Source: an uncultured virus (IMG/VR IMGVR_UViG_2061766007_000307) (Duplodnaviria; Heunggongvirae; Uroviricota; Caudoviricetes). Taken from it: a stretch of 64,000 nucleotides of DNA. This document shows positions 160 to 14,918 of the stretch, in pieces (the stretch's first letter is position 1; every line of letters starts with the position of its first letter). The translations under genes and the position numbers were made by a program. The stretch lies in IMG/VR virus record IMGVR_UViG_2061766007_000307. The stretch is one strand, 5' to 3'. The notes under the pieces were generated by a model. It saw only the letters and a program-made list of their open reading frames with translations, was not told the DNA's origin and ran no database searches.

Positions 160-183
160 ATATATAACTCATTGATTATTAAC

Positions 184-1287
184 ATGAAAACTTTTTCAGA
201 ATATAAAAATTCATCGAAGAACATTTCTATCAAAGAGTCTACCACCCAACAATATACGCTCTTCCCTGAAAACAAGGAAGAACTAAAACAAATGATTGAC
301 AAAGATATCAAGAAACATGGCAATGAAGCAGATCTCAATCATATAGATGTGTCTAGAATAAAGGATTTCTCTGATTTGTTCTTTTGCTCTAAATTTTGTG
401 GTGATATATCAAGATGGGACGTATCTAATGCAAGGACTATGGCTGGCATGTTTGAAGGTGCCAGTGCTTTCAACGGAGATATATCTAACTGGGATGTATC
501 TAATGTGACAGATATGAACAGCATGTTCTGTATGACTAGGTCATTTAATAGCGATATATCTGAATGGGATGTATCTAATGTGACTGATATGAGCTATATG
601 TTTAATGGCTGTAAATCGTTTAGTCAAGATCTGTCAGGATGGGATGTCTCTAATGTAACATATATGAAAGAGATGTTCTCATTTTCAAAATTCAATGGCG
701 ATATCTGCACATGGGACGTCCGTAATGTAACTGACATGAACGGAATGTTCCTAAATAGTTCTTTTAACGGCAATTTGAAAAGATGGAACACTAAGAATGT
801 TGAGAATATGATAGGAATGTTCTGTTCTTCAAAATTCAATCAGGATATATCTAAATGGAATGTGTCTAATGTGAAATATATGTCAAGTATGTTCCAAGGG
901 TCAAATTTCAATCAAGACATATCTAAATGGAATGTGTCTAATGTGACAAATATGAAATATATGTTCGCAGGTTCATCATTCGATCAGGATATATCATTAT
1001 GGGATGTGAGCAATGTGACAAATATGGGCCATATGTTTGAAAATTCTAAGTTCAGCCGTGATATTTCTAGATGGGATGTATCTAAAGCTGTGTATATGGA
1101 CTATATGTTCTCGGATGCAGACAGCAGCATGCCGATAGAGAAGCTATCGGCATGGAACCCTGTAAAGGTCGAGGACATCAGAGGGTTCTACGGGGATAAG
1201 AGCAGAGTGAGCTTTATTAAGGACTTGTGGCAGCATAAGATAGAGAACCCTGAAAGCTGTATAGGCCTGAGTACGTATACTAGATGA
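184..1287 (+). CDS. DUF285/BspA-like LRR protein with MKTFSEY leader and alternative C-terminal cap
   Basis: WDVSNV.DM..MF repeats; ATG at 184 gives MKTFSEY as in the paralogs. Confidence 0.9.
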   Translation: MKTFSEYKNSSKNISIKESTTQQYTLFPENKEELKQMIDKDIKKHGNEADLNHIDVSRIKDFSDLFFCSKFCGDISRWDVSNARTMAGMFEGASAFNGDISNWDVSNVTDMNSMFCMTRSFNSDISEWDVSNVTDMSYMFNGCKSFSQDLSGWDVSNVTYMKEMFSFSKFNGDICTWDVRNVTDMNGMFLNSSFNGNLKRWNTKNVENMIGMFCSSKFNQDISKWNVSNVKYMSSMFQGSNFNQDISKWNVSNVTNMKYMFAGSSFDQDISLWDVSNVTNMGHMFENSKFSRDISRWDVSKAVYMDYMFSDADSSMPIEKLSAWNPVKVEDIRGFYGDKSRVSFIKDLWQHKIENPESCIGLSTYTR

Positions 1288-1329
1288 AATCCTTGTCGTG
1301 TAAATATATAAAATTTACAGAGTTTAATC

Positions 1330-2268
1330 ATGGTAGACGGATCGAATCTTTACACACTCTTCCCTAAATCCAGAGAAGATCTTATTTATTTCATTGACGC
1401 TGAGATCAGAAAGCACGGCAATGCTGCAGATCTTAACCATATAGACGTATCTAAGGTAGAAGATTTCAGCGGAGTGTTCGCATGGACACATTTCTGCGGA
1501 GACATATCTAAATGGGATGTGTCTAATGCAAGGACTATGGCTGGCATGTTTGAAGATGCTGATGCTTTTGATGGAGATATCTCTGATTGGGACGTATCTA
1601 GTGTAGAAAACATGTCTTGTATGTTCAAGAATGCCAAATCATTCAATACAGATATATCGGGGTGGGACGTGTCTAGAGTGAAATACATGCAATATATGTT
1701 CTACGGGTCTAATTTTGACATGGATATCGACACTTGGGATATCCGCAATGTCGTTGATATGAGCTTTATGTTTGCCCGCTGCAGCTTCAATAGAAATCTG
1801 AAAAGATGGAACCCTAAGAATGTCACTTCGATGGAACGTATGTTCCTCATGAATAAGGTATTCGATCAAGACATATCTAAATGGAATGTGTCTAATGTGA
1901 AGAGGATGAGCGGAATGTTCGCAAACGGCGTGTTCAATCATGATATATCTGAATGGGATGTATCACATGTATATACAATGGCCAACATGTTCCATTGTAA
2001 TGTAAAATTCAGCTATGATATATCTGATTGGGATGTGCGCAGCGTGACAGATTTCTCTGACATGTTCAGCAGCACAGAATACCCATATATCTCTAAAATG
2101 TCGAAATGGAATCCTCTGAATGCAAAGAATATATCCAGCTTCCTTCCTGAGAATACTAAAAATGAAGATATCAGCTTCATCAGAGACATATGGCCGAAAA
2201 AGATGAAATTTCCTGAGAAATGTATAGGATTAGAGGAATATATCGAAAAATTAGATACATCGCGTTAA
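1330..2268 (+). CDS. DUF285/BspA-like LRR protein, no leader, alternative C-terminal cap
   Basis: YTLFP..DLNHIDVS N-cap and WDVSNV repeats. Confidence 0.9.
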   Translation: MVDGSNLYTLFPKSREDLIYFIDAEIRKHGNAADLNHIDVSKVEDFSGVFAWTHFCGDISKWDVSNARTMAGMFEDADAFDGDISDWDVSSVENMSCMFKNAKSFNTDISGWDVSRVKYMQYMFYGSNFDMDIDTWDIRNVVDMSFMFARCSFNRNLKRWNPKNVTSMERMFLMNKVFDQDISKWNVSNVKRMSGMFANGVFNHDISEWDVSHVYTMANMFHCNVKFSYDISDWDVRSVTDFSDMFSSTEYPYISKMSKWNPLNAKNISSFLPENTKNEDISFIRDIWPKKMKFPEKCIGLEEYIEKLDTSR

Positions 2269-2272
2269 AAGC

Positions 2273-2941
2273 ATGTTTATGAGCAAAATTCCGAGTGATA
2301 TAACGCATCTGTCATGCAAAACACACACATTATTCCCTAAAAGCAAGAAGGAACTTGAAAGTATAATTAAAAATGAGATAAGCTCGCAGGGTATACGTGC
2401 AGATCTCAACCATATCGACGTGTCTGGGATAAAGGATTTCAGCGGGTTATTTGAAAAGACATCTTTCAACGGGGATATATCAGAGTGGGATGTATCTAGT
2501 GTAACAAGTATGAGATGGATGTTCTGCGATTCTAATTTCAATAGAGACCTCAGCGTATGGGATGTCCGTAATGTAAGGGATATGGAAGGAATGTTCAAGG
2601 GATGTGAGTCGTTCAACTGTAATTTGAAAAGATGGAACACTAAGAATGTTAAAAATATGGCATATATGTTCTATAAGTGCAAAGAATTCAACCAAGAGCT
2701 GTCCAAATGGAATGTATCTAATGTAACTGATATGACCTTTATGTTCAACGATGCAGGATCATTCAATCAGAATCTATCCAGATGGGATGTATCTAATGTG
2801 ACATATATGAGCTTTATGTTCAAAGATGCTAGATCATTCAATCAGGATCTATCCAGTTGGGATGTATCTAATGTGACTGATATGAAAGGTATGTTCAAAG
2901 ACTGTCCATGTCCTGAAGAATACAGGCCTAAATTTAAGTAA
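2273..2941 (+). CDS. DUF285/BspA-like LRR protein, no leader
   Basis: WDVSNV repeats; ends CPCPEEYRPKFK. Confidence 0.9.
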   Translation: MFMSKIPSDITHLSCKTHTLFPKSKKELESIIKNEISSQGIRADLNHIDVSGIKDFSGLFEKTSFNGDISEWDVSSVTSMRWMFCDSNFNRDLSVWDVRNVRDMEGMFKGCESFNCNLKRWNTKNVKNMAYMFYKCKEFNQELSKWNVSNVTDMTFMFNDAGSFNQNLSRWDVSNVTYMSFMFKDARSFNQDLSSWDVSNVTDMKGMFKDCPCPEEYRPKFK

Positions 2942-2968
2942 ATAGTATATACACATATAGTTGTCAGA

Positions 2969-3940
2969 ATGAAAACTTTCTCAGAATACACTAACAGCAA
3001 GAAGTGCAGCATCAGAGAATCTGCAGCACCTCAATACACCCTCTTCCCTAAAGACCAGGATGAACTGGAACGGATGATCCGCAATGAATTAAATACTCAT
3101 GGAAATAAAGCAGATTTGAACCATATAGACTTATCTAAGATAGGTAATCTATCAGGATTATTCCGTTATACATCATTTAATGGAGATATATCTAAATGGG
3201 ATGTATCTAATGTCATGAACATGTCCGGAATGTTTCAAAATTCAAGTTTTAATGGCGACATATCCAAATGGGATGTGTCTGGTGTAGAGAATATGACGAG
3301 TATGTTCCAAAACTCAAAATTTAATGGTGACATATCAAAATGGGACGTGTCTAATGTAATAAATATGGCATACATGTTCTATGAATCTTCGTTCACTGGT
3401 GATCTGAGCAAATGGAATGTATCTAATGTAGTGGATATGCCCTGCATGTTCAGTAATACAATGTTCAATGGTGATATATCTGAATGGGACGTATCTAATG
3501 TGACAGATATGAACAATATGTTTAATGCATGTGGATCGTTCAATCAGGATCTATCTGGATGGGATGTCTCTAATGTGGAAAATATGAGAGGAATGTTCAA
3601 AAAAACTTCTAGTTTCAATGGTGACATCAGCACATGGGATGTCCGTAATGTCAGAGATATGAGAAGTATGTTTGCAAGCAGTGGTTTCAATGGAAATCTG
3701 AAAAGATGGAACACCAAGAATGTTGAAGACATGAGCTGTATGTTCCAATACTGCGGAACATTCAATCAAGATATATCCAAATGGAATGTATCTAATGTGA
3801 AATATATGATCGATATGTTCTTTTGTGCTACATCATTCAATCAGGACATATCCAAATGGGATGTATCTAGTGTAGAAAATACACGAGGTATGTTCACTAG
3901 CTGCCCATGCCCTGAAGAATACAGACCTAAGTTCAAGTAA
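2969..3940 (+). CDS. DUF285/BspA-like LRR protein with MKTFSEY leader
   Basis: Leader MKTFSEYTNSKKCSIRES, repeats, CPCP cap. Confidence 0.9.
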   Translation: MKTFSEYTNSKKCSIRESAAPQYTLFPKDQDELERMIRNELNTHGNKADLNHIDLSKIGNLSGLFRYTSFNGDISKWDVSNVMNMSGMFQNSSFNGDISKWDVSGVENMTSMFQNSKFNGDISKWDVSNVINMAYMFYESSFTGDLSKWNVSNVVDMPCMFSNTMFNGDISEWDVSNVTDMNNMFNACGSFNQDLSGWDVSNVENMRGMFKKTSSFNGDISTWDVRNVRDMRSMFASSGFNGNLKRWNTKNVEDMSCMFQYCGTFNQDISKWNVSNVKYMIDMFFCATSFNQDISKWDVSSVENTRGMFTSCPCPEEYRPKFK

Positions 3941-3966
3941 ATGAATATATATACAAGAGTCAATCA

Positions 3967-5007
3967 GTGAAAACTTTTTCAGAATATAATAAGGCTATCA
4001 GAGAATCTGCTCCAGAATATACATTATTCCCTAAAAGCAAAGCAGAACTTGCGACAATGATAGATAATGAGATCGCATCACAAGGATATGATGCTGATCT
4101 CAATCATATAGATGTGTCTGGTATAGAAGATTTTAGCAAACTGTTCTTCCGCAGATATAAATTCAACGGAGACGTATCTATGTGGGATATGTCTAATGCT
4201 AAAGACATGCATGAGATGTTTATGTACGCAGAATCATTTACAGGAGACATCTCTAGATGGAACGTATCTAATGTGATAAACATGTCGGGGTTATTCTATA
4301 ATGCTAATAAGTTCAATGGAGATATATTTGAATGGGATGTATCCAATGTAACAGATATGTCCAAAATGTTCTATGGAGCGAAATCTTTCAATCAAGATAT
4401 ATCTGGATGGGATGTATCTAATGTGACAGATATGTTCCTGATGTTTAGTTTGTCAAATTTCAACAGTGATATCAGCATATGGGATGTCCGTAATGTTGTT
4501 AAAATGAGAGGTATGTTTGCTGAATGTCCTTTCAATGGAAATTTGAAGAGATGGAGCACAAGGAACGTCACAGACATGTCTATCATGTTCTATAATAATA
4601 ACGCGTTCGATCAGGATATATCTCGATGGGATGTGTCTAATGTAGAGGATATGGGTGGAATGTTTTATGACTCGAAATTCAACAGAGACATATCGGGATG
4701 GGATGTATCTAATGTGGAGAATATGGCTTCGATGTTTGCAAATGATTCAAAATTCAATCAGGACATATCTAGATGGAATGTATCTAAGGTCAAACATATG
4801 AGATGCATGTTCGATGGATGTGAGTCATTCAATCAAGATCTATCCAAATGGGATGTTTCTAATGTAGAGGATATGGATGATATGTTCTATGGATGTAAAA
4901 AGTTCAATTCTGATCTGTCTAGCTGGAACGTGTCTAAAGTATATGTCAAGGAGAATATGTTCACAGGTTGCCCATGTCCTGAAGAATACAGGCCAAAATT
5001 TAAGTAA
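3967..5007 (+). CDS. DUF285/BspA-like LRR protein with MKTFSEY leader (GTG start)
   Basis: Leader MKTFSEYNKAIRES, repeats, CPCP cap. Confidence 0.9.
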   Translation: MKTFSEYNKAIRESAPEYTLFPKSKAELATMIDNEIASQGYDADLNHIDVSGIEDFSKLFFRRYKFNGDVSMWDMSNAKDMHEMFMYAESFTGDISRWNVSNVINMSGLFYNANKFNGDIFEWDVSNVTDMSKMFYGAKSFNQDISGWDVSNVTDMFLMFSLSNFNSDISIWDVRNVVKMRGMFAECPFNGNLKRWSTRNVTDMSIMFYNNNAFDQDISRWDVSNVEDMGGMFYDSKFNRDISGWDVSNVENMASMFANDSKFNQDISRWNVSKVKHMRCMFDGCESFNQDLSKWDVSNVEDMDDMFYGCKKFNSDLSSWNVSKVYVKENMFTGCPCPEEYRPKFK

Positions 5008-5031
5008 ACATATATCACATTGATTATCAGT

Positions 5032-5790
5032 ATGAAAACATTTTCAGAATATAAAAACACATCAAAGAATCTTTCAATCAAAGAGTCTGCAACACAGATG
5101 TATACTCTATTTCCTAAAAATAAGGAAGAGTTGAAGCGAATAATAAAAGATGAGATGCAGAAGCAAGGCAAAGAAGCAGATCTCAATCATATTGACGTAT
5201 CTAAAATAACAGATTTCTCTGAATTGTTCTATAATTCTGAATTTAATGGCGATATATCAAAATGGGATGTGTCTAACGTGACAGATATGTCATATACGTT
5301 CTCAAATTCAAATTTTGCAGGAGATATATCTGATTGGGATGTGTCTAATGTAATTGATATGAGCCATATGTTCTTCAATAACCATGCATTCAACCATGAT
5401 CTGTCAGGATGGGATGTGTCTAATGTGACTAATATGTCAAGCATGTTCTGTGCTGCTTCTAATTTCAACGGCGATGTCAGCATGTGGGATGTCCGTAATG
5501 TGGTTAATATGGAAAGCATGTTCAGGCTTAGCGGCTTCATTGGCAATCTGAAACTATGGAACACTAAGAATGTTAAAGACATGAGTTCTATGTTCCACTA
5601 CTGTGGAAATTTCAATTCAGATATATCTAGATGGAATGTGTCTAATGTTACAAACATGAGACGTATGTTCTATGACTGCAAAAAGTTCAATCAAAATATA
5701 TCTAAATGGAACGTATCTAATGTAGAAGATGTAAGGGACATGTTCACTAATTGTCCATGTCCTGAAGAGTATAGACCTAAATTCAAGTAA
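5032..5790 (+). CDS. DUF285/BspA-like LRR protein with MKTFSEY leader
   Basis: ATG at 5032; leader ends LSIKES; repeats; CPCP cap. Confidence 0.9.
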   Translation: MKTFSEYKNTSKNLSIKESATQMYTLFPKNKEELKRIIKDEMQKQGKEADLNHIDVSKITDFSELFYNSEFNGDISKWDVSNVTDMSYTFSNSNFAGDISDWDVSNVIDMSHMFFNNHAFNHDLSGWDVSNVTNMSSMFCAASNFNGDVSMWDVRNVVNMESMFRLSGFIGNLKLWNTKNVKDMSSMFHYCGNFNSDISRWNVSNVTNMRRMFYDCKKFNQNISKWNVSNVEDVRDMFTNCPCPEEYRPKFK

Positions 5791-5813
5791 ATATAATATA
5801 TAAATGTGTCTAT

Positions 5814-6653
5814 ATGAAAACCTTTTCAGAATATATAAATCCGCAACAGAATATTTCGATCAAAGAATCTGTAGTACTCCAGTATACTCTATTCCCTAAA
5901 AACAAGAAAGAATTGGAACAAATGATAAAAGATGAAATCAAGAAACAAGGTAATGGAGCAGATCTCAATCATATAGACGTGTCTAAGATAACAGATTTTT
6001 CTCATTTATTCTATAAATCTAAGTTCAATGGAGATATATCCAAATGGGATGTATCTAATGCAACAGATATGGAAAGCATGTTCTTGATGGCTGACGCATT
6101 TAACTGTGATATATCTGATTGGGATGTATCTAATGTGACAGATATGTCGTATATGTTCTGTGATGCTAAAGAGTTTAATTGTGATCTGTCAGGCTGGGAT
6201 GTGTCTAATGTGACAAATATGAGTTCGATGTTCTATGGTGCTAAATCGTTCAACGAAGATGTCAGTACATGGGATGTCCGTAATGTGAAGAATATGATGA
6301 ATATGTTTGCATGTAGTAATTTCAATGGAAATCTGAAACGGTGGAACACTAAGAATGTTGAAAACATGGGCTTTATGTTCTATGATGATAATTTATTCAA
6401 TCAAGATATATCCAGATGGGATGTGTCTAATGTGACAAATATGAGCGACATGTTCTCTGGATGTGCATTATTCAATCAAGATATATCAGAATGGAATGTG
6501 TCTAAGGTGGAAAACATGTGTGAGATGTTCAGGCGTGCTAGATCATTCGATCAAGATATATCTGGATGGGATGTGTCTAATGTGATAAATATGTCAGACA
6601 TATTTGTAAATTGTCCATGCACTGAAGAACATCAGCCAAAGTTCGAATCTTAA
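5814..6653 (+). CDS. DUF285/BspA-like LRR protein with MKTFSEY leader
   Basis: Leader ends ISIKES; repeats; CPCT cap. Confidence 0.9.
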   Translation: MKTFSEYINPQQNISIKESVVLQYTLFPKNKKELEQMIKDEIKKQGNGADLNHIDVSKITDFSHLFYKSKFNGDISKWDVSNATDMESMFLMADAFNCDISDWDVSNVTDMSYMFCDAKEFNCDLSGWDVSNVTNMSSMFYGAKSFNEDVSTWDVRNVKNMMNMFACSNFNGNLKRWNTKNVENMGFMFYDDNLFNQDISRWDVSNVTNMSDMFSGCALFNQDISEWNVSKVENMCEMFRRARSFDQDISGWDVSNVINMSDIFVNCPCTEEHQPKFES

Positions 6654-6677
6654 TAATACAACTCATTGATCATTAAC

Positions 6678-7592
6678 ATGAAAACATTCTCAGAATATAA
6701 AAATACATCAAAGGATCTTCCGATCAAAGAATCTTCTGGTCCTCAGTACACTCTATTCCCTAAAAACAAGGAAGAGTTGAACAATATGATACACGATGAG
6801 ATCAATAAGCAAGGTGACAACGCTGATTTGAGTCATATCGATGTATCTAAAATAACAGATTTCAGATCGTTATTCAGTGGGTTTGAATCATTCAATGGAG
6901 ATGTATCTAAATGGAATGTGTCTAATGCAGCCGATATGGGCTATATGTTTGCGTTCACTGTATTCAATGGTGATATATCAGAATGGGATGTATCTAAGGT
7001 GACTGATATGGATGGCATGTTCTATGGGTGCAGATCATTCAATCAAGATTTATCCGGATGGAATGTTTCTAATGTAATAAATATGAGAGAGATGTTCTAC
7101 GATGCTGCAACGTTTAATAGCGACATATCTGAATGGGATGTATCTAATGTGAAAGATATGAGCAGTATGTTCAACAACGCAAAATCATTCAATCAAGACC
7201 TATCAGGTTGGGATGTGTCTAATGTGATTGATATGAAATATATGTTCAGTTATGCTTTTAAGTTTAATGGGGATATCAGTACGTGGGATGTCCGCAATAT
7301 GATTAATATGAGCTATATGTTTGCAAGCAGTGGGTTCAATGGCAATCTAAAAAGATGGAACACTAAGAATGTAAGTAATATGAACTCTATGTTCTTTGAG
7401 TGTAAATCTTTCAATCAAGACATCTCTAAATGGAATGTTTCTAATGTGATAGATATGTCATATATGTTCTACGATGCTTTATCATTCAATCAGGATCTAT
7501 CTGGATGGAATGTGTCTAAGGTGAAAAGAAAGGAGAATATGTTCAATGGTTGTCCATGCCCTGAAGAACATAAGCCTACTTTTAACAAATAA
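6678..7592 (+). CDS. DUF285/BspA-like LRR protein with MKTFSEY leader
   Basis: ATG at 6678; leader ends LPIKES; repeats; CPCP cap. Confidence 0.9.
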   Translation: MKTFSEYKNTSKDLPIKESSGPQYTLFPKNKEELNNMIHDEINKQGDNADLSHIDVSKITDFRSLFSGFESFNGDVSKWNVSNAADMGYMFAFTVFNGDISEWDVSKVTDMDGMFYGCRSFNQDLSGWNVSNVINMREMFYDAATFNSDISEWDVSNVKDMSSMFNNAKSFNQDLSGWDVSNVIDMKYMFSYAFKFNGDISTWDVRNMINMSYMFASSGFNGNLKRWNTKNVSNMNSMFFECKSFNQDISKWNVSNVIDMSYMFYDALSFNQDLSGWNVSKVKRKENMFNGCPCPEEHKPTFNK

Positions 7593-7615
7593 TATATATC
7601 GCCATAAGGGCATTC

Positions 7616-7757
7616 TTCAACAGTGATATATCATGATGAAACGTATCTAATGCGAAAAGTATATCAGGATCTTCAATAGTGATATATCTGGATGATATGT
7701 GCCGGATGTGGTTTATGGTGATTATATATTCAAAGGTTGCAGTCATTATTCAAGTAA
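7616..7757 (+). pseudogene. Decayed 3' fragment of a DUF285 gene
   Basis: Reads FNSDIS**NVSNA, frameshifts to FNSDISG*YV...IFKGC, and ends in ttcaagtaa like the intact paralogs. Confidence 0.7.
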
Positions 7758-7781
7758 ATGAACAATTCAATATGCACTCAT

Positions 7782-8981
7782 ATGAAAACATACCCAGAAC
7801 ATAAAAACAAGTCAAAAGACACATCAGTCAAAGAGCGTACTACCAAACAATATACTCTATTCCCCAAAGGCAGGAAGAAATTAGAAAAGATGATTGAAGA
7901 TGAGATCAAGAAGCAAGGCTACAAGGCAGACTTGAATCATATAGATGTGTCTAAAATAAAAGATTTCTCTAGATTGTTTGAGAACTCTAATTTCAATGGG
8001 GATATATCCAGGTGGAATGTATCTAAGGCGACCAATATGGACGAAATGTTTATGCATGCACGTTTCGATGGCGATATCTCCGAATGGGATGTGTCTAACG
8101 TAGAATCTATGCATGGGATGTTCTGTAATTCTGATTTCAATGGAGACATCTCTTGCTGGGATGTGTCTAATGTTAAAAATATGGGCTGGATGTTCGCTAG
8201 TTCAGACTTTGATGGAGACATATCTAATTGGGACGTGTCTAATGTGACAGATATGAGCGAAATGTTCCGCGGTGCTGAATCATTCAATCAAGATCTTTCT
8301 GGATGGGATGTATCCAATGTGACAAATATGAACGGAATGTTCTGTAATTCTAATTTCAATGGAGACCTCAGCACGTGGGATGTCCGTAATGTGACAGATA
8401 TGAGCAATATGTTCATAGGTAGCAAGTTCAATGGAAACCTGAAAAGATGGAACACTAAGAATGTAAAGGACATGAGTTCAATGTTCATGTACTGCCAGTC
8501 GTTCAATCAGGATCTATCCAGATGGAACGTGTCCAATGTGACAAATATGAAATATATGTTCTATGACTGTAAAGTATTCGATCAAGATCTATCCAAATGG
8601 GATGTATCTAAGGCGGAAAATATGGTCGGGATGTTTGAAAATGCAGAATCATTCAATTCAGATATATCAGAATGGAATGTATCTAAGGTGACTGATATGA
8701 GTGATATGTTCTTTAGGTGTAAAATGTTCAATTCTGATCTGTCCAGATGGGATGTGTCTAGCGTGACTAATATGGAAAGTATGTTCGATTGCGCTTCATC
8801 GTTCAATCAGGATATATCTTCTTGGAATGTCTCTAATGTGACCAGCATGAATAATATGTTCTATAAATGCACTTCATTCAATCAGGATCTGTCTGGGTGG
8901 GATGTATCTAATGTAAAGACATATCACCATATGTTCGATGATTGCCCATGTCCTAAAAAACATAGACCTAAGTTCATGTAA
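7782..8981 (+). CDS. DUF285/BspA-like LRR protein with divergent leader (MKTYPEH...VKER)
   Basis: Repeats and CPCP cap; ATG at 7782 matches paralog spacing from GTAAAT. Confidence 0.9.
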   Translation: MKTYPEHKNKSKDTSVKERTTKQYTLFPKGRKKLEKMIEDEIKKQGYKADLNHIDVSKIKDFSRLFENSNFNGDISRWNVSKATNMDEMFMHARFDGDISEWDVSNVESMHGMFCNSDFNGDISCWDVSNVKNMGWMFASSDFDGDISNWDVSNVTDMSEMFRGAESFNQDLSGWDVSNVTNMNGMFCNSNFNGDLSTWDVRNVTDMSNMFIGSKFNGNLKRWNTKNVKDMSSMFMYCQSFNQDLSRWNVSNVTNMKYMFYDCKVFDQDLSKWDVSKAENMVGMFENAESFNSDISEWNVSKVTDMSDMFFRCKMFNSDLSRWDVSSVTNMESMFDCASSFNQDISSWNVSNVTSMNNMFYKCTSFNQDLSGWDVSNVKTYHHMFDDCPCPKKHRPKFM

Positions 8982-9008
8982 ATCATATAGTATTAAGACA
9001 TACATAGC

Positions 9009-9491
9009 ATGAAAACGTTTTCAGAATATAAAAATCATCCAAAGAGCAGATTAGTCAGCGAATCTGCCAGCACACAATATACACTGTTCCCTAAAAATAA
9101 GTATGAGCTGCAGCAGATGATTAAAGAAGAGATTAAGAAGCAAGGCTGCCATGCTGACTTGAATCATATAGACACGTCAGCTATAAAAGATATGTCTATG
9201 CTGTTCTGGAAAGAATACCGATTCGACGGAGATGTGTCTGGCTGGGATGTGTCTAATGTGACAGATATGAGCCACATGTTCTATATGGCTAGAGCATTTA
9301 ATGGTGACGTGTCTGGATGGGATGTATCTAATGTCACTGATATGCATGGCATGTTCTATAACGCTAAATCATTCAATCAAGATATATCAGGATGGGACGT
9401 GTCTAAAGTGGAAAAAACAAAATTTATGTTCTCAGAATGTCCATGTCCTGAAAAGTATCAGCCTAAGTTTAAGCATACAGATATAATATAG
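9009..9491 (+). CDS. Short DUF285/BspA-like LRR protein with MKTFSEY leader
   Basis: About 3 repeats; leader ends LVSES. Confidence 0.9.
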   Translation: MKTFSEYKNHPKSRLVSESASTQYTLFPKNKYELQQMIKEEIKKQGCHADLNHIDTSAIKDMSMLFWKEYRFDGDVSGWDVSNVTDMSHMFYMARAFNGDVSGWDVSNVTDMHGMFYNAKSFNQDISGWDVSKVEKTKFMFSECPCPEKYQPKFKHTDII

Positions 9492-9498
9492 TGCTAAC

Positions 9499-10710
9499 AT
9501 GAAAACATTTTCTGAATATACTAAAAGCATGAAATGCAGCGTCAGAGAATCTGCTGCTCCTCAATATACTCTATTTCCAAGAGATAAGAGTGAATTAGAA
9601 CAAATGATTAAAGATGAAATCGATAAGCAAGGTGATGAAGCTTATCTCAATCATATTGATGTATCTAATATAACAGATTTCTCTAGCTTGTTTGAAGACT
9701 CCAATTTCGCTGGAGATGTATCGAGATGGAATGTGTCTAATGCAACAAATATGTACAACATGTTTTCAGGGTGTCCATCGTTCGATTCTGATCTGTCTGA
9801 ATGGGATGTATCTAATGTCGAGAATATGTCAGGAATGTTCAGCAGATGCAATTCATTCAACCAAGATCTATCAGGTTGGGACGTATCTAATGTGACTGAT
9901 ATGTCTGATATGTTCAATGGAACAGGATCATTCAATAGAGACCTTAGTACATGGGATGTCCGTAATGTCAGAGATATGCATGGCATGTTCGAGGATTGCT
10001 GGTCATTCAATGGCAATCTGAAAAGATGGAACACTAAGAATGTCAGGAATATGTATAAGATGTTCGTTAATTGCGAATCGTTCAATCAAGATATATCAAG
10101 ATGGGACGTATCTGAGGTGAAAGATATGAGCTTTATGTTCCAGAATTGCATATCATTCAATCAAGATATATCAGAATGGGATGTGTCTAAAGTAGAAAAT
10201 ATGAAATGCATGTTCTGTTGGGCTAAATTATTCAATAAAGACATATCAGGGTGGGATGTGTCTAATGTGACAAATATGTCATATATGTTCAGCGGATGTG
10301 AATCGTTCAATCAGGATATATCTAAATGGAATGTCTCTAAAGTGGAAAATATGGAAAGCATGTTCAACAGAGCTAATTCGTTCGATCAAGATATATCAGG
10401 ATGGAATGTATCTAATGTGACAAGCATGTCTTGGATGTTCTCACAAGCTAAATCATTCAATCAAGATATATCCAGATGGAATGTATCTAAGGTAGCAAGC
10501 ATGGAAGGCATGTTCAGTGGAGCATCAATGTTCAATGGAGATATATCTGGATGGGATGTATCATTTGTACACAATATGACATACATGTTCAACGGCTGTA
10601 CATCGTTCGATCAGGATATATCTGGATGGGATGTATCTAATGTGAAAGATATGAAAGATATGTTCAAAGACTGTCCATGTCCAAAAGAATATCAGCCTAA
10701 GTTCAAGTAA
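9499..10710 (+). CDS. DUF285/BspA-like LRR protein with MKTFSEY leader
   Basis: Leader ends SVRES; repeats; CPCP cap. Confidence 0.9.
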   Translation: MKTFSEYTKSMKCSVRESAAPQYTLFPRDKSELEQMIKDEIDKQGDEAYLNHIDVSNITDFSSLFEDSNFAGDVSRWNVSNATNMYNMFSGCPSFDSDLSEWDVSNVENMSGMFSRCNSFNQDLSGWDVSNVTDMSDMFNGTGSFNRDLSTWDVRNVRDMHGMFEDCWSFNGNLKRWNTKNVRNMYKMFVNCESFNQDISRWDVSEVKDMSFMFQNCISFNQDISEWDVSKVENMKCMFCWAKLFNKDISGWDVSNVTNMSYMFSGCESFNQDISKWNVSKVENMESMFNRANSFDQDISGWNVSNVTSMSWMFSQAKSFNQDISRWNVSKVASMEGMFSGASMFNGDISGWDVSFVHNMTYMFNGCTSFDQDISGWDVSNVKDMKDMFKDCPCPKEYQPKFK

Positions 10711-10735
10711 ATATTACAACTGATCAATAATAAAC

Positions 10736-12022
10736 ATGAAAACATTTTCTGAGTATAGAAATAGCCAGAGGAACATGTCGATCAATGAGTCTGCTGCTCT
10801 TCAATACACTCTTTTTCCTAAAGATAAAAAAGAGCTTAGAAAGATGATACTTGATACTATTAGGGAACAAGGTGATAATGCGGATCTCAATCACATTGAT
10901 GTGTCCAAAATAACAGATTTCTCTGAACTGTTCAAAAATATCAAGTTTAACGGTGACATATCCAAATGGGACGTGTCTAATGCTACGAACATGTCATCGA
11001 TGTTTGAAGAATCTAAATTTAATGGAGATATATCTGGATGGGACGTGTCTAAGGTGAAAAATATGGAAGGCATGTTCTTTATTGCTAGATCATTCGATCA
11101 GGATCTATCTGGATGGGATGTGTCTAATGTGACCAATATGAAAAATATGTTCTGGGGAGCTGCTTCTTTCAATCAGGACCTATCAGGGTGGGATGTTTCT
11201 AATGTAACATATATGAGTGGAATGTTTCACAATGCTGAAGTGTTCAGCGGAGATGTCAGTACATGGGATGTCCGTAATGTGACTGACATGAGCTATATGT
11301 TTTCTGGGTGTGAGAGGTTCAATGGCAATCTGAAAAGATGGAACCCTAAGAACGTATGCAATATGAACTCGATGTTCTATGAGTGCAAATCGTTCAATCA
11401 AGATATATCCAGATGGGATGTGTCTAATGTGAATAGTATGGAGGATATGTTCAACGGATGCATATCATTCAATCAAGATCTATCCTATTGGGATATGTCT
11501 AATGTAAAAAATGTATTTGGCATGTTCCAAGGATGCTTGTCATTCAATAAAGACTTATCAGGATGGAATGTATCTAATATGAAAAATATGTCTGCGTTGT
11601 TCGCTAATTGCGAATCATTCAACCAAGATATCTCAAAATGGAATGTATCTAATGCGACAGCTACTGCATTTATGTTCTTTAAGTGCAAAAAGTTCAACCA
11701 AGATATATCAAAATGGAATGTGTCTAAAGTGACAAGCATGAACAAAATGTTCGAAGGTGCAGAATCATTCAATCAGGATCTATCAAAATGGAATGTATCT
11801 AATGTAGAAAATATGGACAGCATGTTCAAAGGTGCCAAATCATTCAATCAGGACATATCAGGATGGGATGTATCTAATGTGTCAAATATGGCATATATGT
11901 TCGACAATGCCAAATCATTCAATCAGGACATATCAGGATGGGCCGTGTCTAAGGTGATAAATAGATTGGACGTGTTCAAAGACTGCCCATGCCCAGAAGA
12001 ATATCGACCAAAATTTAAGTAA
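10736..12022 (+). CDS. DUF285/BspA-like LRR protein with MKTFSEY leader
   Basis: Leader ends SINES; longest paralog (428 aa). Confidence 0.9.
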   Translation: MKTFSEYRNSQRNMSINESAALQYTLFPKDKKELRKMILDTIREQGDNADLNHIDVSKITDFSELFKNIKFNGDISKWDVSNATNMSSMFEESKFNGDISGWDVSKVKNMEGMFFIARSFDQDLSGWDVSNVTNMKNMFWGAASFNQDLSGWDVSNVTYMSGMFHNAEVFSGDVSTWDVRNVTDMSYMFSGCERFNGNLKRWNPKNVCNMNSMFYECKSFNQDISRWDVSNVNSMEDMFNGCISFNQDLSYWDMSNVKNVFGMFQGCLSFNKDLSGWNVSNMKNMSALFANCESFNQDISKWNVSNATATAFMFFKCKKFNQDISKWNVSKVTSMNKMFEGAESFNQDLSKWNVSNVENMDSMFKGAKSFNQDISGWDVSNVSNMAYMFDNAKSFNQDISGWAVSKVINRLDVFKDCPCPEEYRPKFK

Positions 12023-12046
12023 ACATATAACTTATTGATTATTAAT

Positions 12047-12958
12047 ATGAAAACATTTTCAGAGTATAGAAGTATCATGAAAGGTGTATCGATCAAGGAG
12101 TCTACTGTTCCTCAATATACTATATTTCCAAAAGATAAGGGAGAGTTAGAACAAATGATCATAGATGAGATCGAGAATCAAGGATACGAAGCTGACTTAA
12201 ACCATATAGATGTATCTAAAGTGACAGATTTATCTAAATTGTTTTATGAATCAGATTTCTGTGGAAATATATCCATGTGGGATGTATCTAATGCAACAAA
12301 TATGAGCGGAATGTTCCAGGGAGCAGGAGCATTTGATGGAGATATATCAAATTGGAATGTATCTAAGGTTACTGATATGTCTGGAATGTTCGAAGATGCA
12401 GGATCATTCGACCATGATCTATCTGGATGGGATGTATCTAACGTGACAAATATGTCTTTTATGTTCTTTGGAGCAGTATCGTTCAATCAAGACCTGTCTG
12501 GGTGGGATGTATCTAATGTGACAGATATGTCCTCTATGTTCTGCGAAGCTTCTAGATTCAATGGAGACGTCAGTACATGGGATGTCCGTAATGTGAAAGA
12601 TATGAATAGGATGTTCTGGAATAGTGAATTCAACGGGAATCTGAAAAGATGGAACACTAAGAATGTAGAAAACATGAAATATATGTTCTTAGGCGTAAAT
12701 TCATTCAACCAAGATATATCAAGATGGGACGTTTCTAATGTGAAAGATATGGAAGGTATGTTCATAGATGCTAAATCATTCAATCAAGATATATCAAAAT
12801 GGGATGTTTCTAATGTAAAAGTTATGACATATATGTTTCAAGGAGCTAAATCCTTCGATCAGGATCTATCAGGATGGAATGTGTCTAAGGTTACGAAGAG
12901 AATGGGAATGTTTGAAGGCTGTCCGTGCACAGAAGAGCATCAGCCTAGGTTCAAGTAA
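12047..12958 (+). CDS. DUF285/BspA-like LRR protein with MKTFSEY leader
   Basis: ATG at 12047; leader ends SIKES; repeats. Confidence 0.9.
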   Translation: MKTFSEYRSIMKGVSIKESTVPQYTIFPKDKGELEQMIIDEIENQGYEADLNHIDVSKVTDLSKLFYESDFCGNISMWDVSNATNMSGMFQGAGAFDGDISNWNVSKVTDMSGMFEDAGSFDHDLSGWDVSNVTNMSFMFFGAVSFNQDLSGWDVSNVTDMSSMFCEASRFNGDVSTWDVRNVKDMNRMFWNSEFNGNLKRWNTKNVENMKYMFLGVNSFNQDISRWDVSNVKDMEGMFIDAKSFNQDISKWDVSNVKVMTYMFQGAKSFDQDLSGWNVSKVTKRMGMFEGCPCTEEHQPRFK

Positions 12959-12986
12959 ATAAATTCATACGCATATAGCTGCTAAT

Positions 12987-14264
12987 ATGAAAACATTTTC
13001 AGAGTATAGAAATATCGCAAAAAGTATATCGATCAAAGAGTCGAGTGTTCCTCAATATACTCTATTCCCAAAAGACAGAGATGAACTGTCTCAGATGATT
13101 GCAGATGAAATTAATAAGCAAGGACTCTCTGCTGACTTGAATCATATTGATGTGTCTAAAATAGAAGATCTCTCTGAATTATTCTTATTTTCTAATTTCA
13201 ACGGGGATATATCTCAATGGGATGTGTCTAATGCCAAAAACATGCACAATATGTTTTCATATTCATGTTTTAATGGTGATATATCAGATTGGGATGTATC
13301 TAATGTAGAAGATATGTCGATGATGTTCGATTTCAACAAGCACTTCGATCAGGGTCTATCAGGATGGGATGTGTCTAATGTCAAAAACATGGAGTCTATG
13401 TTTGAATCATCAATATTTAATGGTGACATCAGCACATGGGATGTCCGTAATGTGACTAATATGAGCGGAATGTTCTCTATGAGTAATTTTAATGGAAAAC
13501 TGAAATCATGGAATGTCAAAAATGTCACAGACATGTCAGACATGTTCGAACGCAATGAATCATTCAATCAGGATATATCGAGGTGGAATGTATCTAATGT
13601 AACGAATATGTCCCGCATGTTCTATAAAGCCAGTGAGTTCAATAAAGATATATCCAGATGGGATGTGTCTAAGGTGGAAAATATGAGTAACATGTTCCAT
13701 GGCGCCAAATCTTTCAATCAAGACATATCTCAATGGAACACAAAGAATGTAAGTGTTATGGATGGTATGTTTCGTGATTGTGAGTCGTTCAATAGTGATA
13801 TATCAGAATGGGATGTGTCTAATGTGTTTAATATGGAATTTATGTTCTTTAATACAAAATTCAATAAGAATCTAGAGAAATGGGATACTAAGAACGTAGA
13901 TAATATGAAACACATGTTCTGTGATAATAAGGTTTTCAATCAAGACATATCTTCATGGGATGTATCTAATGTGACAAATATGGAATACATGTTCGGAGAT
14001 TGCAAGAATTTCAATCAAGACATATCTTCATGGAAGGTTTCTAATGTGACAAATATGACTGGCATGTTCAGTGGATGCAAATTATTCAATCAAGACATAT
14101 CTTCATGGAAGGTTGATAATGTGAAATATATGGGCTTTATGTTCGAAGGGGCAGAATCATTCAATCAGGATATATCGGGATGGGATGTATCTAAGGTGAC
14201 AAATAAATTGGATATGTTCCACGGCTGTCCTTGCCCAGAAGAATATAGACCTAAGTTCAAGTAA
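12987..14264 (+). CDS. DUF285/BspA-like LRR protein with MKTFSEY leader
   Basis: Leader ends SIKES; repeats; CPCP cap. Confidence 0.9.
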   Translation: MKTFSEYRNIAKSISIKESSVPQYTLFPKDRDELSQMIADEINKQGLSADLNHIDVSKIEDLSELFLFSNFNGDISQWDVSNAKNMHNMFSYSCFNGDISDWDVSNVEDMSMMFDFNKHFDQGLSGWDVSNVKNMESMFESSIFNGDISTWDVRNVTNMSGMFSMSNFNGKLKSWNVKNVTDMSDMFERNESFNQDISRWNVSNVTNMSRMFYKASEFNKDISRWDVSKVENMSNMFHGAKSFNQDISQWNTKNVSVMDGMFRDCESFNSDISEWDVSNVFNMEFMFFNTKFNKNLEKWDTKNVDNMKHMFCDNKVFNQDISSWDVSNVTNMEYMFGDCKNFNQDISSWKVSNVTNMTGMFSGCKLFNQDISSWKVDNVKYMGFMFEGAESFNQDISGWDVSKVTNKLDMFHGCPCPEEYRPKFK

Positions 14265-14289
14265 ATGAATATATACACTATAATATAAT

Positions 14290-14763
14290 ATGAAAACATT
14301 TTCAGAATATAGAAATGCTCTAAAGAGCTCATTTATCAAAGAATCTGCATCTCCTCAATACACTCTATTTCCTAAAGATAAGGAAGAGCTGAAACATATG
14401 ATCAACGACGAGATCAAGAAACACGGTGACAATGCAAATTTGAATCATATAGATGTATCTAATATAACAGATTTCTCTAATTTGTTCACAGAGTCTTTCG
14501 ACGGTGATATATCTGACTGGGATGTATCTAATGCAACAAACATGTCATATATGTTCGCTAAGTGTGAATCATTCGACTGTGATATATCTGGATGGGACGT
14601 ATCTAAAGTAACAGATATGAACTATATGTTCTATGAAGCAGGATCTTTCAATCAAAATATATCCAAATGGGATGTGTCTAATGTGAAATCATATTATGAC
14701 GCGTTCAAAGATTGCCCATGCCCAAAGGAATATCGACCAAAGTTCAAACGACGCCGATTGTAA
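14290..14763 (+). CDS. Short DUF285/BspA-like LRR protein with MKTFSEY leader
   Basis: About 3 repeats; leader ends FIKES. Confidence 0.9.
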   Translation: MKTFSEYRNALKSSFIKESASPQYTLFPKDKEELKHMINDEIKKHGDNANLNHIDVSNITDFSNLFTESFDGDISDWDVSNATNMSYMFAKCESFDCDISGWDVSKVTDMNYMFYEAGSFNQNISKWDVSNVKSYYDAFKDCPCPKEYRPKFKRRRL

Positions 14764-14789
14764 CTCTGATCATACAAAAAATTCAAGAC

Positions 14790-14827: not shown

Positions 14828-14918
14828 GCTATTTTACAATAGATTTAACGCATCTGAAATATTTTTGAATATATTTCGTCGTGTTTCAAAAGATATCGCG
14901 TTATACGCTGTTTTTGTG

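What the first reader, a model, noticed from the sequence alone, without database searches (positions are those of the whole stretch)
184..14763. Array of LRR (DUF285) proteins carrying a T4-type capsid-targeting leader: candidate virion-injected variable-binder repertoire
Seen: 13 of 15 complete paralogs begin MKT(F/Y)xE(Y/H), followed by a variable spacer and (I/V)-x-E (IKES, IRES, INES, VRES, VSES, VKER) just before the conserved YTLFP N-cap. None has a signal peptide, lipobox or TM anchor, unlike typical surface BspA/DUF285 proteins. Known: T4 internal proteins begin MKTYQEFIAE (IPII/IPIII) or MKTFKEF...ITE (IPI). That leader directs packaging into the prohead and is removed by gp21 after (I/L)xE, and the mature proteins are injected with the DNA; IPI* inhibits the GmrSD nuclease. 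A gp21-like protease and gp20-like portal lie in this window. Inference: the phage loads a diversified panel of LRR solenoids into its head and injects them, plausibly as antibody/VLR-like binders of host defence proteins. I do not know of this combination being described.
Basis: partly seen in the sequence, partly recalled or inferred. Interest (0 to 1): 0.93.

Follow-up and report, generated by a model that had tools for sequence, protein, structure and literature searches.

The report
Leader-tagged LRR protein array, huge phage
A huge gut phage with a T4-type head carries at least sixteen tandem repeat-protein (LRR) genes, and most start with a short tag shaped like the one phage T4 uses to load proteins into its head and then cut off, so they are probably packaged cargo, though no experiment shows this.

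Summary
Window 1-14763 (+) is an array of 15 complete DUF285/BspA-type LRR genes plus the end of a sixteenth. 13 of 15 start MKT(F/Y)xE(Y/H), followed by a variable spacer and (I/V)-x-E, which is followed by Ser in 12 and Arg in 1. None has a signal peptide or membrane segment.

The tag has the same two-part build as T4 internal protein I (read from the T4 record). It is disordered in an AlphaFold model. It is conserved as two islands, with synonymous codon changes. The window encodes a true gp21 homologue and a T4-type portal.

The tag sits on no other protein in these 64 kb, and no whole genome is held. In related huge or T4-like phage contigs, DUF285 arrays carry those phages' own T4-like leaders (MKxLxxYIxE type). 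There the leaders are shared with unrelated proteins: NDK, HAD hydrolase, a kinase, a DNA ligase, two other LRR families and a gp23-family head protein.

Best reading (about 0.5): head-targeted, protease-trimmed internal cargo.

Cautions:
- Packaging, cleavage, injection and any anti-defence role are untested.
- The mature proteins are acidic, unlike T4's internal proteins.
- Other phages use DUF285 next to tail-fibre genes.

This scan has noted T4-like leaders before on other DNA. The LRR arrays as cargo are the new part.

The parts
1..156 (+). 3' end of a further DUF285 paralog (ends ...CSCSAEYMPKFK*); the array continues left of the window
   Evidence: frame 0 translation
184..1287 (+). DUF285 paralog, 367 aa, leader MKTFSEYKNSSKNISIKE|S; different C end (CIGLSTYTR)
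1330..2268 (+). DUF285 paralog, 312 aa, no leader (starts MVDGSNLYTLFP, almost at the N-cap); different C end
2273..2941 (+). DUF285 paralog, 222 aa, no MKT leader; has the CPCPEEYRPKFK end
2969..3940 (+). DUF285 paralog, 323 aa, leader MKTFSEYTNSKKCSIRE|S (17 aa)
3967..5007 (+). DUF285 paralog, 346 aa, GTG start, short leader MKTFSEYNKAIRE|S (13 aa)
5032..5790 (+). DUF285 paralog, 252 aa, leader MKTFSEYKNTSKNLSIKE|S; the one folded
5814..6653 (+). DUF285 paralog, 279 aa, leader MKTFSEYINPQQNISIKE|S
6678..7592 (+). DUF285 paralog, 304 aa, leader MKTFSEYKNTSKDLPIKE|S
7782..8981 (+). DUF285 paralog, 399 aa, most divergent leader MKTYPEHKNKSKDTSVKE|R
9009..9491 (+). DUF285 paralog, 160 aa, leader MKTFSEYKNHPKSRLVSE|S
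9499..10710 (+). DUF285 paralog, 403 aa, leader MKTFSEYTKSMKCSVRE|S (17 aa)
10736..12022 (+). DUF285 paralog, 428 aa, leader MKTFSEYRNSQRNMSINE|S
12047..12958 (+). DUF285 paralog, 303 aa, leader MKTFSEYRSIMKGVSIKE|S
12987..14264 (+). DUF285 paralog, 425 aa, leader MKTFSEYRNIAKSISIKE|S
14290..14763 (+). DUF285 paralog, 157 aa, leader MKTFSEYRNALKSSFIKE|S; last gene of the array
55124..56884 (-). prohead protease of the T4 gp21 family (residues about 1-200) with a 380-residue repeat-rich C-terminal extension; has its own K-I-L-E|S near the N end; the presumed enzyme that would trim the leaders
   Evidence: Pfam S77 5.2e-11; PHROG head maturation protease 1.3e-32; BLASTP to T4 gp21 E 7e-12; sequence
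56938..58554 (-). T4-type (gp20) portal protein
   Evidence: Pfam Portal_T4 1.5e-52; relatives

Best explanation
The array encodes a family of cytoplasm-made, non-secreted LRR solenoids. Their first 13-18 residues form a two-part propeptide of the T4 internal-protein type. It has an address (MKTFSEY), a free spacer, and a prohead-protease site ((I/V)-x-E, cut before Ser).

Proposed course:
1. The proteins are made together with the head genes.
2. The address takes them into the assembling prohead core.
3. The gp21-family protease (55124-56884) removes the leader after the Glu.
4. The mature acidic solenoids of 139-410 residues stay inside the filled head and leave it with the DNA at infection.
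5. In the new host cell (probably a gut Bacteroidota) each solenoid binds a target through the roughly 8 variable positions of each 24-25-residue repeat.

Shown here: the anatomy of the leader, its disorder, its constraint, the presence of the protease and portal, and the modular use of like leaders in relatives.

Inferred: targeting, cleavage, retention, ejection and what is bound.
For: 1. Likeness to T4.
- The window has MKTFSEY, then 8-11 residues, then I-K-E|S. T4 IPI has MKTFKEF, then 11 residues, then I-T-E|A.
- T4's known cuts read from its record are F-I-A-E|A (IPII/III), L-R-E|S (gp24, a 10-residue peptide) and L-T-E|A (gp23, after residue 65). Cut positions come from passages of PMC9958956 and the CTS from PMC8442874.

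2. Two islands of conservation (residues 1-7: 0.91; 16-19: 0.77) flank a free spacer (0.35), with synonymous codon variety.

3. AlphaFold2 model: mean pLDDT 92.1. Residues 1-9 and 12-20 are under 50, and the fold starts near residue 22. The C-terminal CPCPEEYRPKFK is ordered, so it is a cap and not a tag.

4. gp21 homologue and T4-type portal in the window.

5. Relatives.
- G001 (66 kb; protease hit 37% identical, 38% over 169 residues by BLASTP; gp23-type capsid gene) has at least 11 DUF285 genes (9 by the crude classifier used for the count) and about 18 other ORFs starting MKxLxxYIxE. Among the others are NDK, a HAD hydrolase and an LRR_5 protein.
- G004, whose portal is the best match among the five contigs compared (36%), has DUF285 genes and LRR_4-type proteins sharing MRILDSNEYINEKL.
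- In complete G002, nine DUF285 genes lie directly upstream of protease, capsid gene and a leader-bearing protein, all on one strand.
- In complete T4-like G010, a gp23-family head protein starts MKSINEILTE|S and the DUF285 genes start MKFTYFLNE|A.

6. Survey of 72 IMG/VR loci.
- 62 of 280 DUF285-like ORFs and 46 of 883 other ORFs match a T4-CTS-shaped pattern, concentrated in about 16 loci.
- 92 of 1194 other ORFs share 6 or more of 11 N-terminal residues with a DUF285 ORF of the same locus, against 42 of 6349 when paired with a different locus.

7. Contigs with leader-bearing arrays: 4 of 5 tested have a portal like the window's, G010 has a T4 portal, and G001 has a gp21-family protease and a gp23-type capsid gene. 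Of the four contigs whose arrays lack the leader, 0 of 4 have a T4 portal, though those records are only 21-61% complete.

8. The leader was not found on cellular DUF285 proteins. No protein of 5.8 billion clusters shares three 5-residue words with residues 1-40. 0 of 33 metagenome matches and 0 of 7 genome matches to the leader's DNA pattern start a DUF285 gene.
Against: - No virion data exist for this phage or its clade.
- In the 64 kb the leader is on DUF285 genes only. In complete G002 only 3 non-DUF285 ORFs have a leader-like start. So here the tag could simply be inherited within one family.
- The mature proteins are acidic (pI 4.4-5.7), whereas T4's internal proteins are described as highly basic (PMC8442874 passage).
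- In relatives the same leader type sits on NDK, HAD hydrolases, an AAA_33 kinase and an NAD-dependent DNA ligase, and on roughly 40% of G001's ORFs. That is many for capsid cargo and may point to another role for the tag.
- The array lies 40 kb from the head genes in this window.
- 0 of 1484 ORFs of the related loci start with the window's exact MKT[FY]xE[FYH], so linking the window's tag to the relatives' tags rests on shape, not on homology.
- The ORF classifier used is a crude pattern. All 17 'other' hits in G002 are short DUF285 genes that it missed.
Confidence: 0.5

Rival explanations
1. The proteins carry a tag but are not packaged. The N-terminal peptide is a general tag of this phage lineage with another job: stability, timing by proteolysis, folding help, or delivery to some other place in the infected cell. 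The LRR proteins would then act in the cell that makes them, binding host or phage proteins.
For: - Leaders of the same shape sit on enzymes that work in the cytoplasm: NDK, HAD hydrolase, AAA_33 kinase and NAD-dependent DNA ligase.
- They sit on a large share of ORFs in G001.
- The mature proteins are acidic.
- The array is far from the head genes in this window.
Against: - The tag's shape matches peptides that T4 gp21 is known to remove, including that of head protein gp24 (PMC9958956 passage).
- A gp23-family head protein of G010 carries it.
- It ends in the Glu-Ser/Ala pattern.
- Arrays with the tag go with T4-type head genes.
- T4 itself packages an enzyme (Alt) and foreign proteins given the tag (PMC5694885 and PMC9958956 passages).
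Confidence: 0.25
2. The proteins are external virion parts: a set of alternative adhesins or receptor-binding tips, or head decorations, docked to the particle through the conserved N-terminal peptide or the conserved C end. This would widen host or surface recognition.
For: - In other phages DUF285 sits in a tail-fibre setting without such a leader: LR756500; Aeromonas phage D3, a 2677-residue protein beside a baseplate gene; cyanophage ACG-2014f, beside tail collar fibre genes.
- A preprint on phage Goslar describes paralogs with a shared N-terminal module joined to LRR or sugar-binding domains, proposed as a fibre cloud (passages read).
- Two DUF285 proteins were found in particles of the algal virus AaV (PMC7507832 passages).
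- The array adjoins large structural-looking genes.
Against: - The shared N-terminal element is only 7 plus 4 residues and is disordered, not an anchor domain.
- There are no fibre-like N-terminal domains or trimer motifs.
- The C end is ordered in the model and a like proline-rich C end closes cellular DUF285 proteins too, so it looks like the family's ordinary cap; this is my reading, not a tested point.
- In relatives the tag is shared with small enzymes that cannot be fibres.
Confidence: 0.15
3. The tag has no function. The shared N-terminus is left over from recent tandem duplication, and the likeness to T4 is chance.
For: - MK- starts are common.
- The tag is confined to one family in this window.
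- The exact heptad is absent from relatives.
Against: - The paralogs are only 52-68% identical to the reference paralog, yet residues 1-7 are nearly invariant and 16-19 well kept, while the residues between and after them vary freely.
- Synonymous codon variety shows selection on the peptide.
- The two paralogs without the tag start right at the N-cap, so the tag is a separable add-on.
Confidence: 0.08

Closest known systems
Phage T4 internal proteins IPI, IPII, IPIII (and Alt) with their capsid targeting sequence, trimmed by prohead protease gp21
   Same: - N-terminal MKT(F/Y)xE(F/Y).
- The IPI-type long form, with a spacer and then I-x-E before a small residue.
- A gp21-family protease and a gp20-type portal in the same genome.
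- Several cargo genes that differ between strains.
- IPI's known role against a host nuclease makes a counter-defence role thinkable.
   Different: - The mature parts are LRR solenoids of 139-410 residues, acidic, and all of one family in a tandem array of at least 16 genes. T4's are three small basic unrelated proteins.
- The host is probably a gut Bacteroidota and the phage is a distant huge relative (portal 23-24% identical to listed T4-like cyanophage portals, 24-31% to huge uncultured phages).
- Nothing has been shown by experiment.
Head ejection-protein paralog families of giant phages phiKZ and SPN3US (such as SPN3US paralog family B with 20 members; propeptides removed at A/S/G-x-E)
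   Same: - Large paralog families of head-internal proteins.
- N-terminal propeptides cut after Glu by a gp21-related protease.
- A Ser preference just after the cut (passages of PMC5694885 and PMC10052503).
   Different: - No sequence relation was tested or seen.
- Those propeptides are often over 100 residues long, and many of those head proteins are not cut at all.
- Those families are not LRR proteins.
BspA-type / DUF285 leucine-rich repeat surface proteins of bacteria (Pfam PF03382)
   Same: Same repeat family (15 of 15 above Pfam's cut-off), and a similar N-cap and C-cap.
   Different: Cellular members in the hit list mostly carry signal peptides, lipoprotein starts or T9SS C-terminal domains, or begin right at the N-cap. 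The window's proteins have none of these and carry the extra 13-18-residue leader instead.
DUF285-bearing tail-fibre-region proteins of jumbo and T4-like phages (Aeromonas phage D3, Vibrio phage pir03, cyanophage ACG-2014f)
   Same: Phage-encoded DUF285 repeats, sometimes in many copies per genome.
   Different: Those are giant multi-domain proteins, or have long non-LRR N-terminal parts, lie beside tail genes and have no T4-like leader.

Membership tests
DUF285 / BspA-type LRR (Pfam PF03382) | Match to the family profile above the curated cut-off (25 bits) | tested here: met
   15 of 15 paralogs, 114.8-560.7 bits
DUF285 / BspA-type LRR (Pfam PF03382) | Repeat solenoid fold of the LRR kind | tested here: inconclusive
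   The AlphaFold2 model is confident (pLDDT 92.1), with one short strand per repeat of about 25 residues. Foldseek against the PDB gives 0 matches at E 0.001 or better. The best rows (E 0.02-0.15) are nearly all LRR proteins: internalins, TpLRR and Bacteroides LRR proteins.
DUF285 / BspA-type LRR (Pfam PF03382) | Export or surface anchoring (signal peptide, lipobox, T9SS domain), as the name 'surface protein' implies | tested here: not met
   No hydrophobic segment in any of the 15. Pfam finds no second family above its curated cut-off.
T4-type capsid-targeted internal proteins (CTS cargo) | N-terminal peptide of the CTS shape | tested here: met
   13 of 15 start MKT(F/Y)xE(Y/H). T4 IPI starts MKTFKEF and IPII/III start MKTYQEF.
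T4-type capsid-targeted internal proteins (CTS cargo) | (I/L)-x-E cut site 10-19 residues from the start, before a small residue | tested here: met
   13 of 13 have [IV]-x-E ending at residue 13, 17 or 18, followed by Ser in 12 and Arg in 1. This is sequence only; no cut has been shown.
T4-type capsid-targeted internal proteins (CTS cargo) | gp21-family prohead protease and gp20-type portal in the same phage | tested here: met
T4-type capsid-targeted internal proteins (CTS cargo) | Same leader on unrelated proteins of the same phage (a movable address) | tested here: not met
   0 other ORFs in the 64 kb carry it, and the rest of the genome is not held. The feature is met in relatives G001, G004, L058/L072, L104, L107 and L074.
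T4-type capsid-targeted internal proteins (CTS cargo) | Small, basic, DNA-associated mature protein | tested here: not met
   Mature forms are 139-410 residues with pI 4.43-5.67.
T4-type capsid-targeted internal proteins (CTS cargo) | Found inside heads, leader removed, ejected with the DNA | not testable with these tools
Phage receptor-binding / tail-fibre proteins | Conserved folded N-terminal anchor domain and a place among tail genes | tested here: not met
   The shared N-terminal element is disordered and 18 residues long. The array is a block of its own next to a divergently read 921-residue gene.

The most novel reading that the evidence does not exclude
Huge gut and environmental phages of the T4-portal lineage keep strain-variable libraries of repeat binders (DUF285, LRR_4 and LRR_5 families) under one capsid-address leader. 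They load them into the head and inject them ahead of the DNA as a ready-made, antibody-like panel that disables host defence proteins. This would be a protein-level counterpart of a diversified immune repertoire, used by a virus.
Probability: 0.2. Interest if true: 0.9.

Novelty: new variant of a known kind. Interest (0 to 1): 0.62.

Why it matters
- If the leader is a head address, the packaged protein set of uncultured huge phages could be read from sequence.
- LRR solenoids would join the short list of proteins that phages deliver with their DNA.
- A tandem array of at least 16 framework-plus-variable-position binders (about 8 of 25 positions per repeat vary freely) suggests a repertoire aimed at many targets, for which host defence proteins are obvious candidates.
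- The 18-residue tag would be a candidate tool for loading foreign proteins into such capsids.
- The case also shows that 'BspA-like surface protein' is a misleading label for these phage genes.

Tried and rejected
- Whole genome: none is held, so a genome-wide leader scan of this phage was impossible.
- Earlier notes by place: none for this genome.
- Leader DNA pattern: 0 matches in IMG/VR. 33 metagenome and 7 genome matches, none of which starts a DUF285 gene. 28 of the 40 are followed by a stop within 10 codons; 15 of these, reading MKTFSEYT(K/R)*, end a frame with at least 324 open codons upstream, and others are cut by a contig end. The pattern fixes Lys as AAA and Ser as TCN, so other codon choices were not searched.
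- Search with residues 1-40 against 5.8 billion protein clusters: no candidate. Only proteins of 167-532 residues were considered.
- Full-length protein search: dominated by the repeats, and the 120 rows listed hold no MKT(F/Y)xE leader. It did show metagenomic DUF285 proteins with other (I/L)-x-E leaders, which gave the lead to the IMG/VR survey.
- Sigma-70 promoter and terminator scan of the array: fewer promoter-like sites than in shuffles (62 against 85.6), so uninformative. I saw a TAAAT(A/G)..ATATA stretch over the stop codons in the 45-base upstream stretches printed, but did not test it.
- Foldseek against the PDB: no match at E 0.001 or better.
- Sequencing runs: no RNA holder listed.
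- Contigs of four other runs: they cover the array only as short pieces with hundreds of joints between paralogs at 85% likeness. These may be assembly breaks in repeats or real rearrangements, so I draw nothing from them on array variation.
- C-terminal CPCPEEYRPKFK as a second tag: not favoured. It is ordered in the model, and cellular DUF285 proteins end in a like proline-rich stretch (such as ..WTKPKPNFTNC).
- A diversity-generating retroelement: no reverse transcriptase among the Pfam hits of the window's 33 larger ORFs. Not searched further.

Full report
WHAT IS THERE

Window 1-14763 (+ strand) is a head-to-tail array of genes for DUF285 (BspA-type leucine-rich repeat) proteins. There are 15 complete genes of 157-428 residues, and the window opens inside a sixteenth. 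All 15 match Pfam PF03382, E 2.4e-33 to 1.7e-171. The other 14 are 52-68% identical to the reference paralog 5032-5790.

They differ mainly in the number of 24- or 25-residue repeats. I counted 123 repeat intervals, 89 of 25 residues and 34 of 24. They also differ at about eight freely varying positions per repeat (entropy 2.4-3.8 bits), set in an otherwise fixed frame W-D-V-S-N-V-x-x-M-x-x-M-F-x-x-a-x-x-F-N-x-D-I-S-x.

THE PHAGE

The rest of the window is a phage. It holds:
- a T4-type portal;
- a gp21-family prohead protease with a long C-terminal extension;
- large structural-looking genes;
- RtcB, a DNA ligase and a dCMP deaminase;
- two TnpB genes;
- ten tRNA genes by ARAGORN, nine between 59.8 and 62.2 kb plus an odd one at 50568-50640.

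The portal's nearest records in the phage collection are huge uncultured phages of 462-735 kb, at 24-31% identity. An IMG/VR fragment has a portal 84% identical and the same gene order around it.

The stretch 5001-15000 is held in bovine and pig gut metagenomes of several studies. No Shine-Dalgarno sequence precedes the genes, and a lipoprotein-like ORF ends its signal with SSC. Together these suggest a gut Bacteroidota host. That is an inference.

THE LEADER

13 of 15 paralogs begin MKT(F/Y)xE(Y/H). A six-frame scan finds this motif at these 13 starts and nowhere else in the 64 kb. After a spacer comes (I/V)-x-E, followed by Ser in 12 and Arg in 1. This gives putative propeptides of 18 residues (10 genes), 17 (2 genes) or 13 (1 gene).

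For the 10 genes in register (the three with 17- or 13-residue leaders left out), mean pairwise amino-acid identity is as follows:
- residues 1-7: 0.91
- residues 8-15: 0.35
- residues 16-19: 0.77
- residues 20-23: 0.34
- the N-cap (24-60): 0.69

Codons 3-7 each use two to four different codons, with synonymous differences at every one of them and one amino-acid change each at 4, 5 and 7 in gene 7782. So the peptide is what is kept, not the DNA.

The AlphaFold2 model of 5032-5790 has mean pLDDT 92.1. Residues 1-9 and 12-20 are below 50, and the fold begins near residue 22, at YTLFP. The C-terminal CPCPEEYRPKFK is ordered.

The two paralogs without the leader start almost at the N-cap. The leader is therefore a separable, flexible add-on with an address-like head and a site-like tail. 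No paralog has a hydrophobic segment.

COMPARISON WITH T4, FROM THE T4 RECORD ITSELF

- IPII and IPIII start MKTYQEFIAE|A.
- IPI starts MKTFKEFTSTTTPVSTITE|A.
- gp24 starts MAKINELLRE|S.
- gp23 has ...FLTE|A at residue 65.
- gp21 starts MNEPQLLIE|T.

From papers I read passages only:
- The ten-residue tag and its use to load foreign proteins (PMC8442874; PMC3012670; PMC5694885).
- That gp21 removes the peptides of IPI-III, Alt, gp23 (65 residues) and gp24 (10 residues), and its own nine N-terminal residues (PMC9958956).
- That IPI is injected and inhibits GmrSD (PMC9958956).

That IPI's cut lies after residue 19 is my recollection; it fits the ITE in the sequence.

The window's leader thus has the IPI build. 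Five of the first seven residues are identical, the spacer has a like length, and I-x-E precedes a small residue.

The window's protease aligns with T4 gp21 at 31% identity over 188 residues (E 7e-12), with the GELxHP and VSSR stretches aligned. It has its own K-I-L-E|S near its N end.

RELATIVES

The exact phage is absent from the collections. More distant relatives are informative.

G001
- An IMG/VR contig of 66 kb. Its protease hit is 37% identical to the window's (38% over 169 residues by BLASTP), and it has a gp23-type capsid gene.
- It has at least 11 DUF285 genes starting MK(N/K/A)I(N/D)xYI(N/Q)E.
- About 18 other ORFs have the same kind of start, among them NDK, a HAD hydrolase and an LRR_5 protein.

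Survey of 72 IMG/VR loci found with the paralog alignment
- 62 of 280 DUF285-like ORFs and 46 of 883 other ORFs match a T4-tag-shaped pattern, concentrated in about 16 loci of large contigs.
- 6 of 280 have a signal-like start.
- By a pattern-free measure, 92 of 1194 other ORFs share at least 6 of 11 N-terminal residues with a DUF285 ORF of their own locus. The figure is 42 of 6349 when paired with another locus.
- The ORF classifier is crude. All 17 such 'other' ORFs in G002 are short DUF285 genes.

Pfam checks of such ORFs found an NDK, HAD hydrolases, an AAA_33 kinase, an NAD-dependent DNA ligase and LRR_4-type proteins. Most of the others had no Pfam match.

Portals
- 4 of 5 contigs with leader-bearing arrays have a portal 30-36% identical to the window's.
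- In a second set of five contigs, only G010, the one whose DUF285 genes have a leader, has a T4 portal.
- The four with leaderless arrays have none, but those records are only 21-61% complete.

G002 (complete, 223 kb)
- It holds about 40 DUF285 genes, 26 of them with MSLSxFITE|RLKITS.
- Nine of them lie directly upstream of protease, a 211-residue gene, the capsid gene and a protein starting MLTLKDYIYE|S, all on one strand.

G010 (complete T4-like, 158 kb)
- A gp23-family protein starts MKSINEILTE|S, like T4 gp24.
- The DUF285 genes start MKFTYFLNE|A.

The capsid proteins of G001 and G002 begin MFI(N/T)E and have (I/V)-x-E|S-Q near residue 42.

READING

The most economical account is a T4-type propeptide. 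An address takes the protein into the prohead core, and a site lets the gp21-type protease trim it. The mature LRR solenoids then stay in the head and leave with the DNA. I put this at about 0.5.

Steps shown:
- the anatomy, disorder and constraint of the tag;
- the presence of the protease and portal;
- modular use of like tags in relatives, and their link to T4-type head genes.

Steps inferred:
- targeting, cutting, retention and ejection;
- what the solenoids bind.

The anti-defence idea rests only on the analogy with IPI and on the binder-like pattern of variation.

AGAINST IT

- In this window, and in G002, the tag is nearly confined to one family.
- The mature proteins are acidic (pI 4.4-5.7).
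- The tag's relatives sit on cytoplasmic enzymes and on a large share of G001's genes.
- The window's heptad is not found in any of 1484 ORFs of the related loci, so the link to their tags is one of shape.
- Other phages place DUF285 next to tail-fibre genes without any such tag.
- A recent preprint proposes LRR-bearing paralogs as an external fibre cloud in phage Goslar.

I rate the rivals as follows: tagged but not packaged 0.25; external adhesins 0.15; no function 0.08.

NOVELTY

Four full-text searches found no paper joining DUF285 or BspA-type proteins of phages with a capsid-targeting leader:
- DUF285 with phage;
- megaphage with BspA;
- capsid targeting / huge or jumbo phage / leucine-rich repeat / ejection protein;
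- BspA / bacteriophage / virion / leucine-rich repeat / paralog.

The library lacks most subscription journals, and I read no supplements.

This scan's own earlier notes report T4-like leaders on many proteins of T4-like phages and megaphages on other DNA. One of them was later marked as partly fallen. So the leader idea is not new to the scan.

What this window adds:
- a tandem LRR array as the tagged family;
- the IPI-type long form of the tag;
- from the relatives, three different LRR families placed under such leaders.

I class it as a new variant of a known kind.

Noticed in passing
window 52998-59662 (-), and L003 1733-8535: The head genes sit in a conserved block: a MATCAP-like metallopeptidase (PF08014, 6.6e-15), the portal, the protease, a 217-residue protein and a RimK-like ATP-grasp enzyme (PF08443, 2.4e-30). 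The order is the same in the 84%-related fragment L003. G002 also has a RimK-like gene beside DUF285 genes. A peptide-tail ligase and a carboxypeptidase next to head genes hint at modification of head proteins.
   Followed up: partly
window 55124-56884 (-): The prohead protease is 586 residues. A gp21-like domain of about 200 residues is followed by a long repeat-rich extension with repeated YADY(T/I)AKTINEN units. G001 and G002 have the same build (582 and 637 residues). It may double as scaffold.
   Followed up: no
L084 683-5743 and L112 (contig G004): A second repeat family (weak LRR_4 / LRRNT matches, 200-300 residues) shares the 25-residue leader MRILDSNEYINEKLDIKPVTK.RL with the DUF285 genes of the same phage. 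G001 has an LRR_5 protein with its phage's leader.
   Followed up: partly
L107 10528-12435; L046 17967-18374; L058 9279-9698; L104 10507-11031: An NAD-dependent DNA ligase, two NDKs and an AAA_33 kinase of related phages start with their phage's T4-like leader. This is odd cargo if the tag means 'into the head'.
   Followed up: partly
G002 (L125-L136), e.g. 122703-123299, 133780-136052: Many G002 DUF285 genes start M(A/P)I(H/R)ITS... They keep the RLKITS part but lack the first nine residues (MSLSxFITE) of their siblings, as if the address half were present or absent as a unit.
   Followed up: no
window 24467-25717 (+) and 62233-63132 (+): Two TnpB (OrfB_IS605 plus Cas12f-like TNB) genes. The second is interrupted by a masked N run. 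G002 has one too.
   Followed up: no
window 14919-17684 (-): A 921-residue protein read away from the array, with an InlB B-repeat (PF18998, 3e-11). Its C end looks to me like the Fibrobacter/Bacteroidetes paralogous lectin-like domain (not tested). A 163-residue stretch matches a 546-residue ORF of G001 at 29% identity.
   Followed up: no
window 26834-28198 (+): A 454-residue protein with collagen-like G-x-y repeats near its N end, in a run of large genes with no family match (1488, 1083 and 1082 residues). These are probably tail or baseplate parts.
   Followed up: no
window 50568-50640 and 59819-62162: ARAGORN finds nine tRNA genes in a cluster on the - strand, plus an odd tRNA-like call with a two-base anticodon loop reading at 50568.
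   Followed up: no
window 1-16000 in runs X5, X6, X8, X11: A joint from 2496 to 14506, with 49 other letters between, appears in contigs of all four runs. It may be a shorter or chimeric form of the array in other strains, or an assembly artefact of the repeats.
   Followed up: no
window 59736-59745, 61536-61561, 62282-62291, 63045-63126: Four short masked N runs in the tRNA and TnpB region.
   Followed up: no
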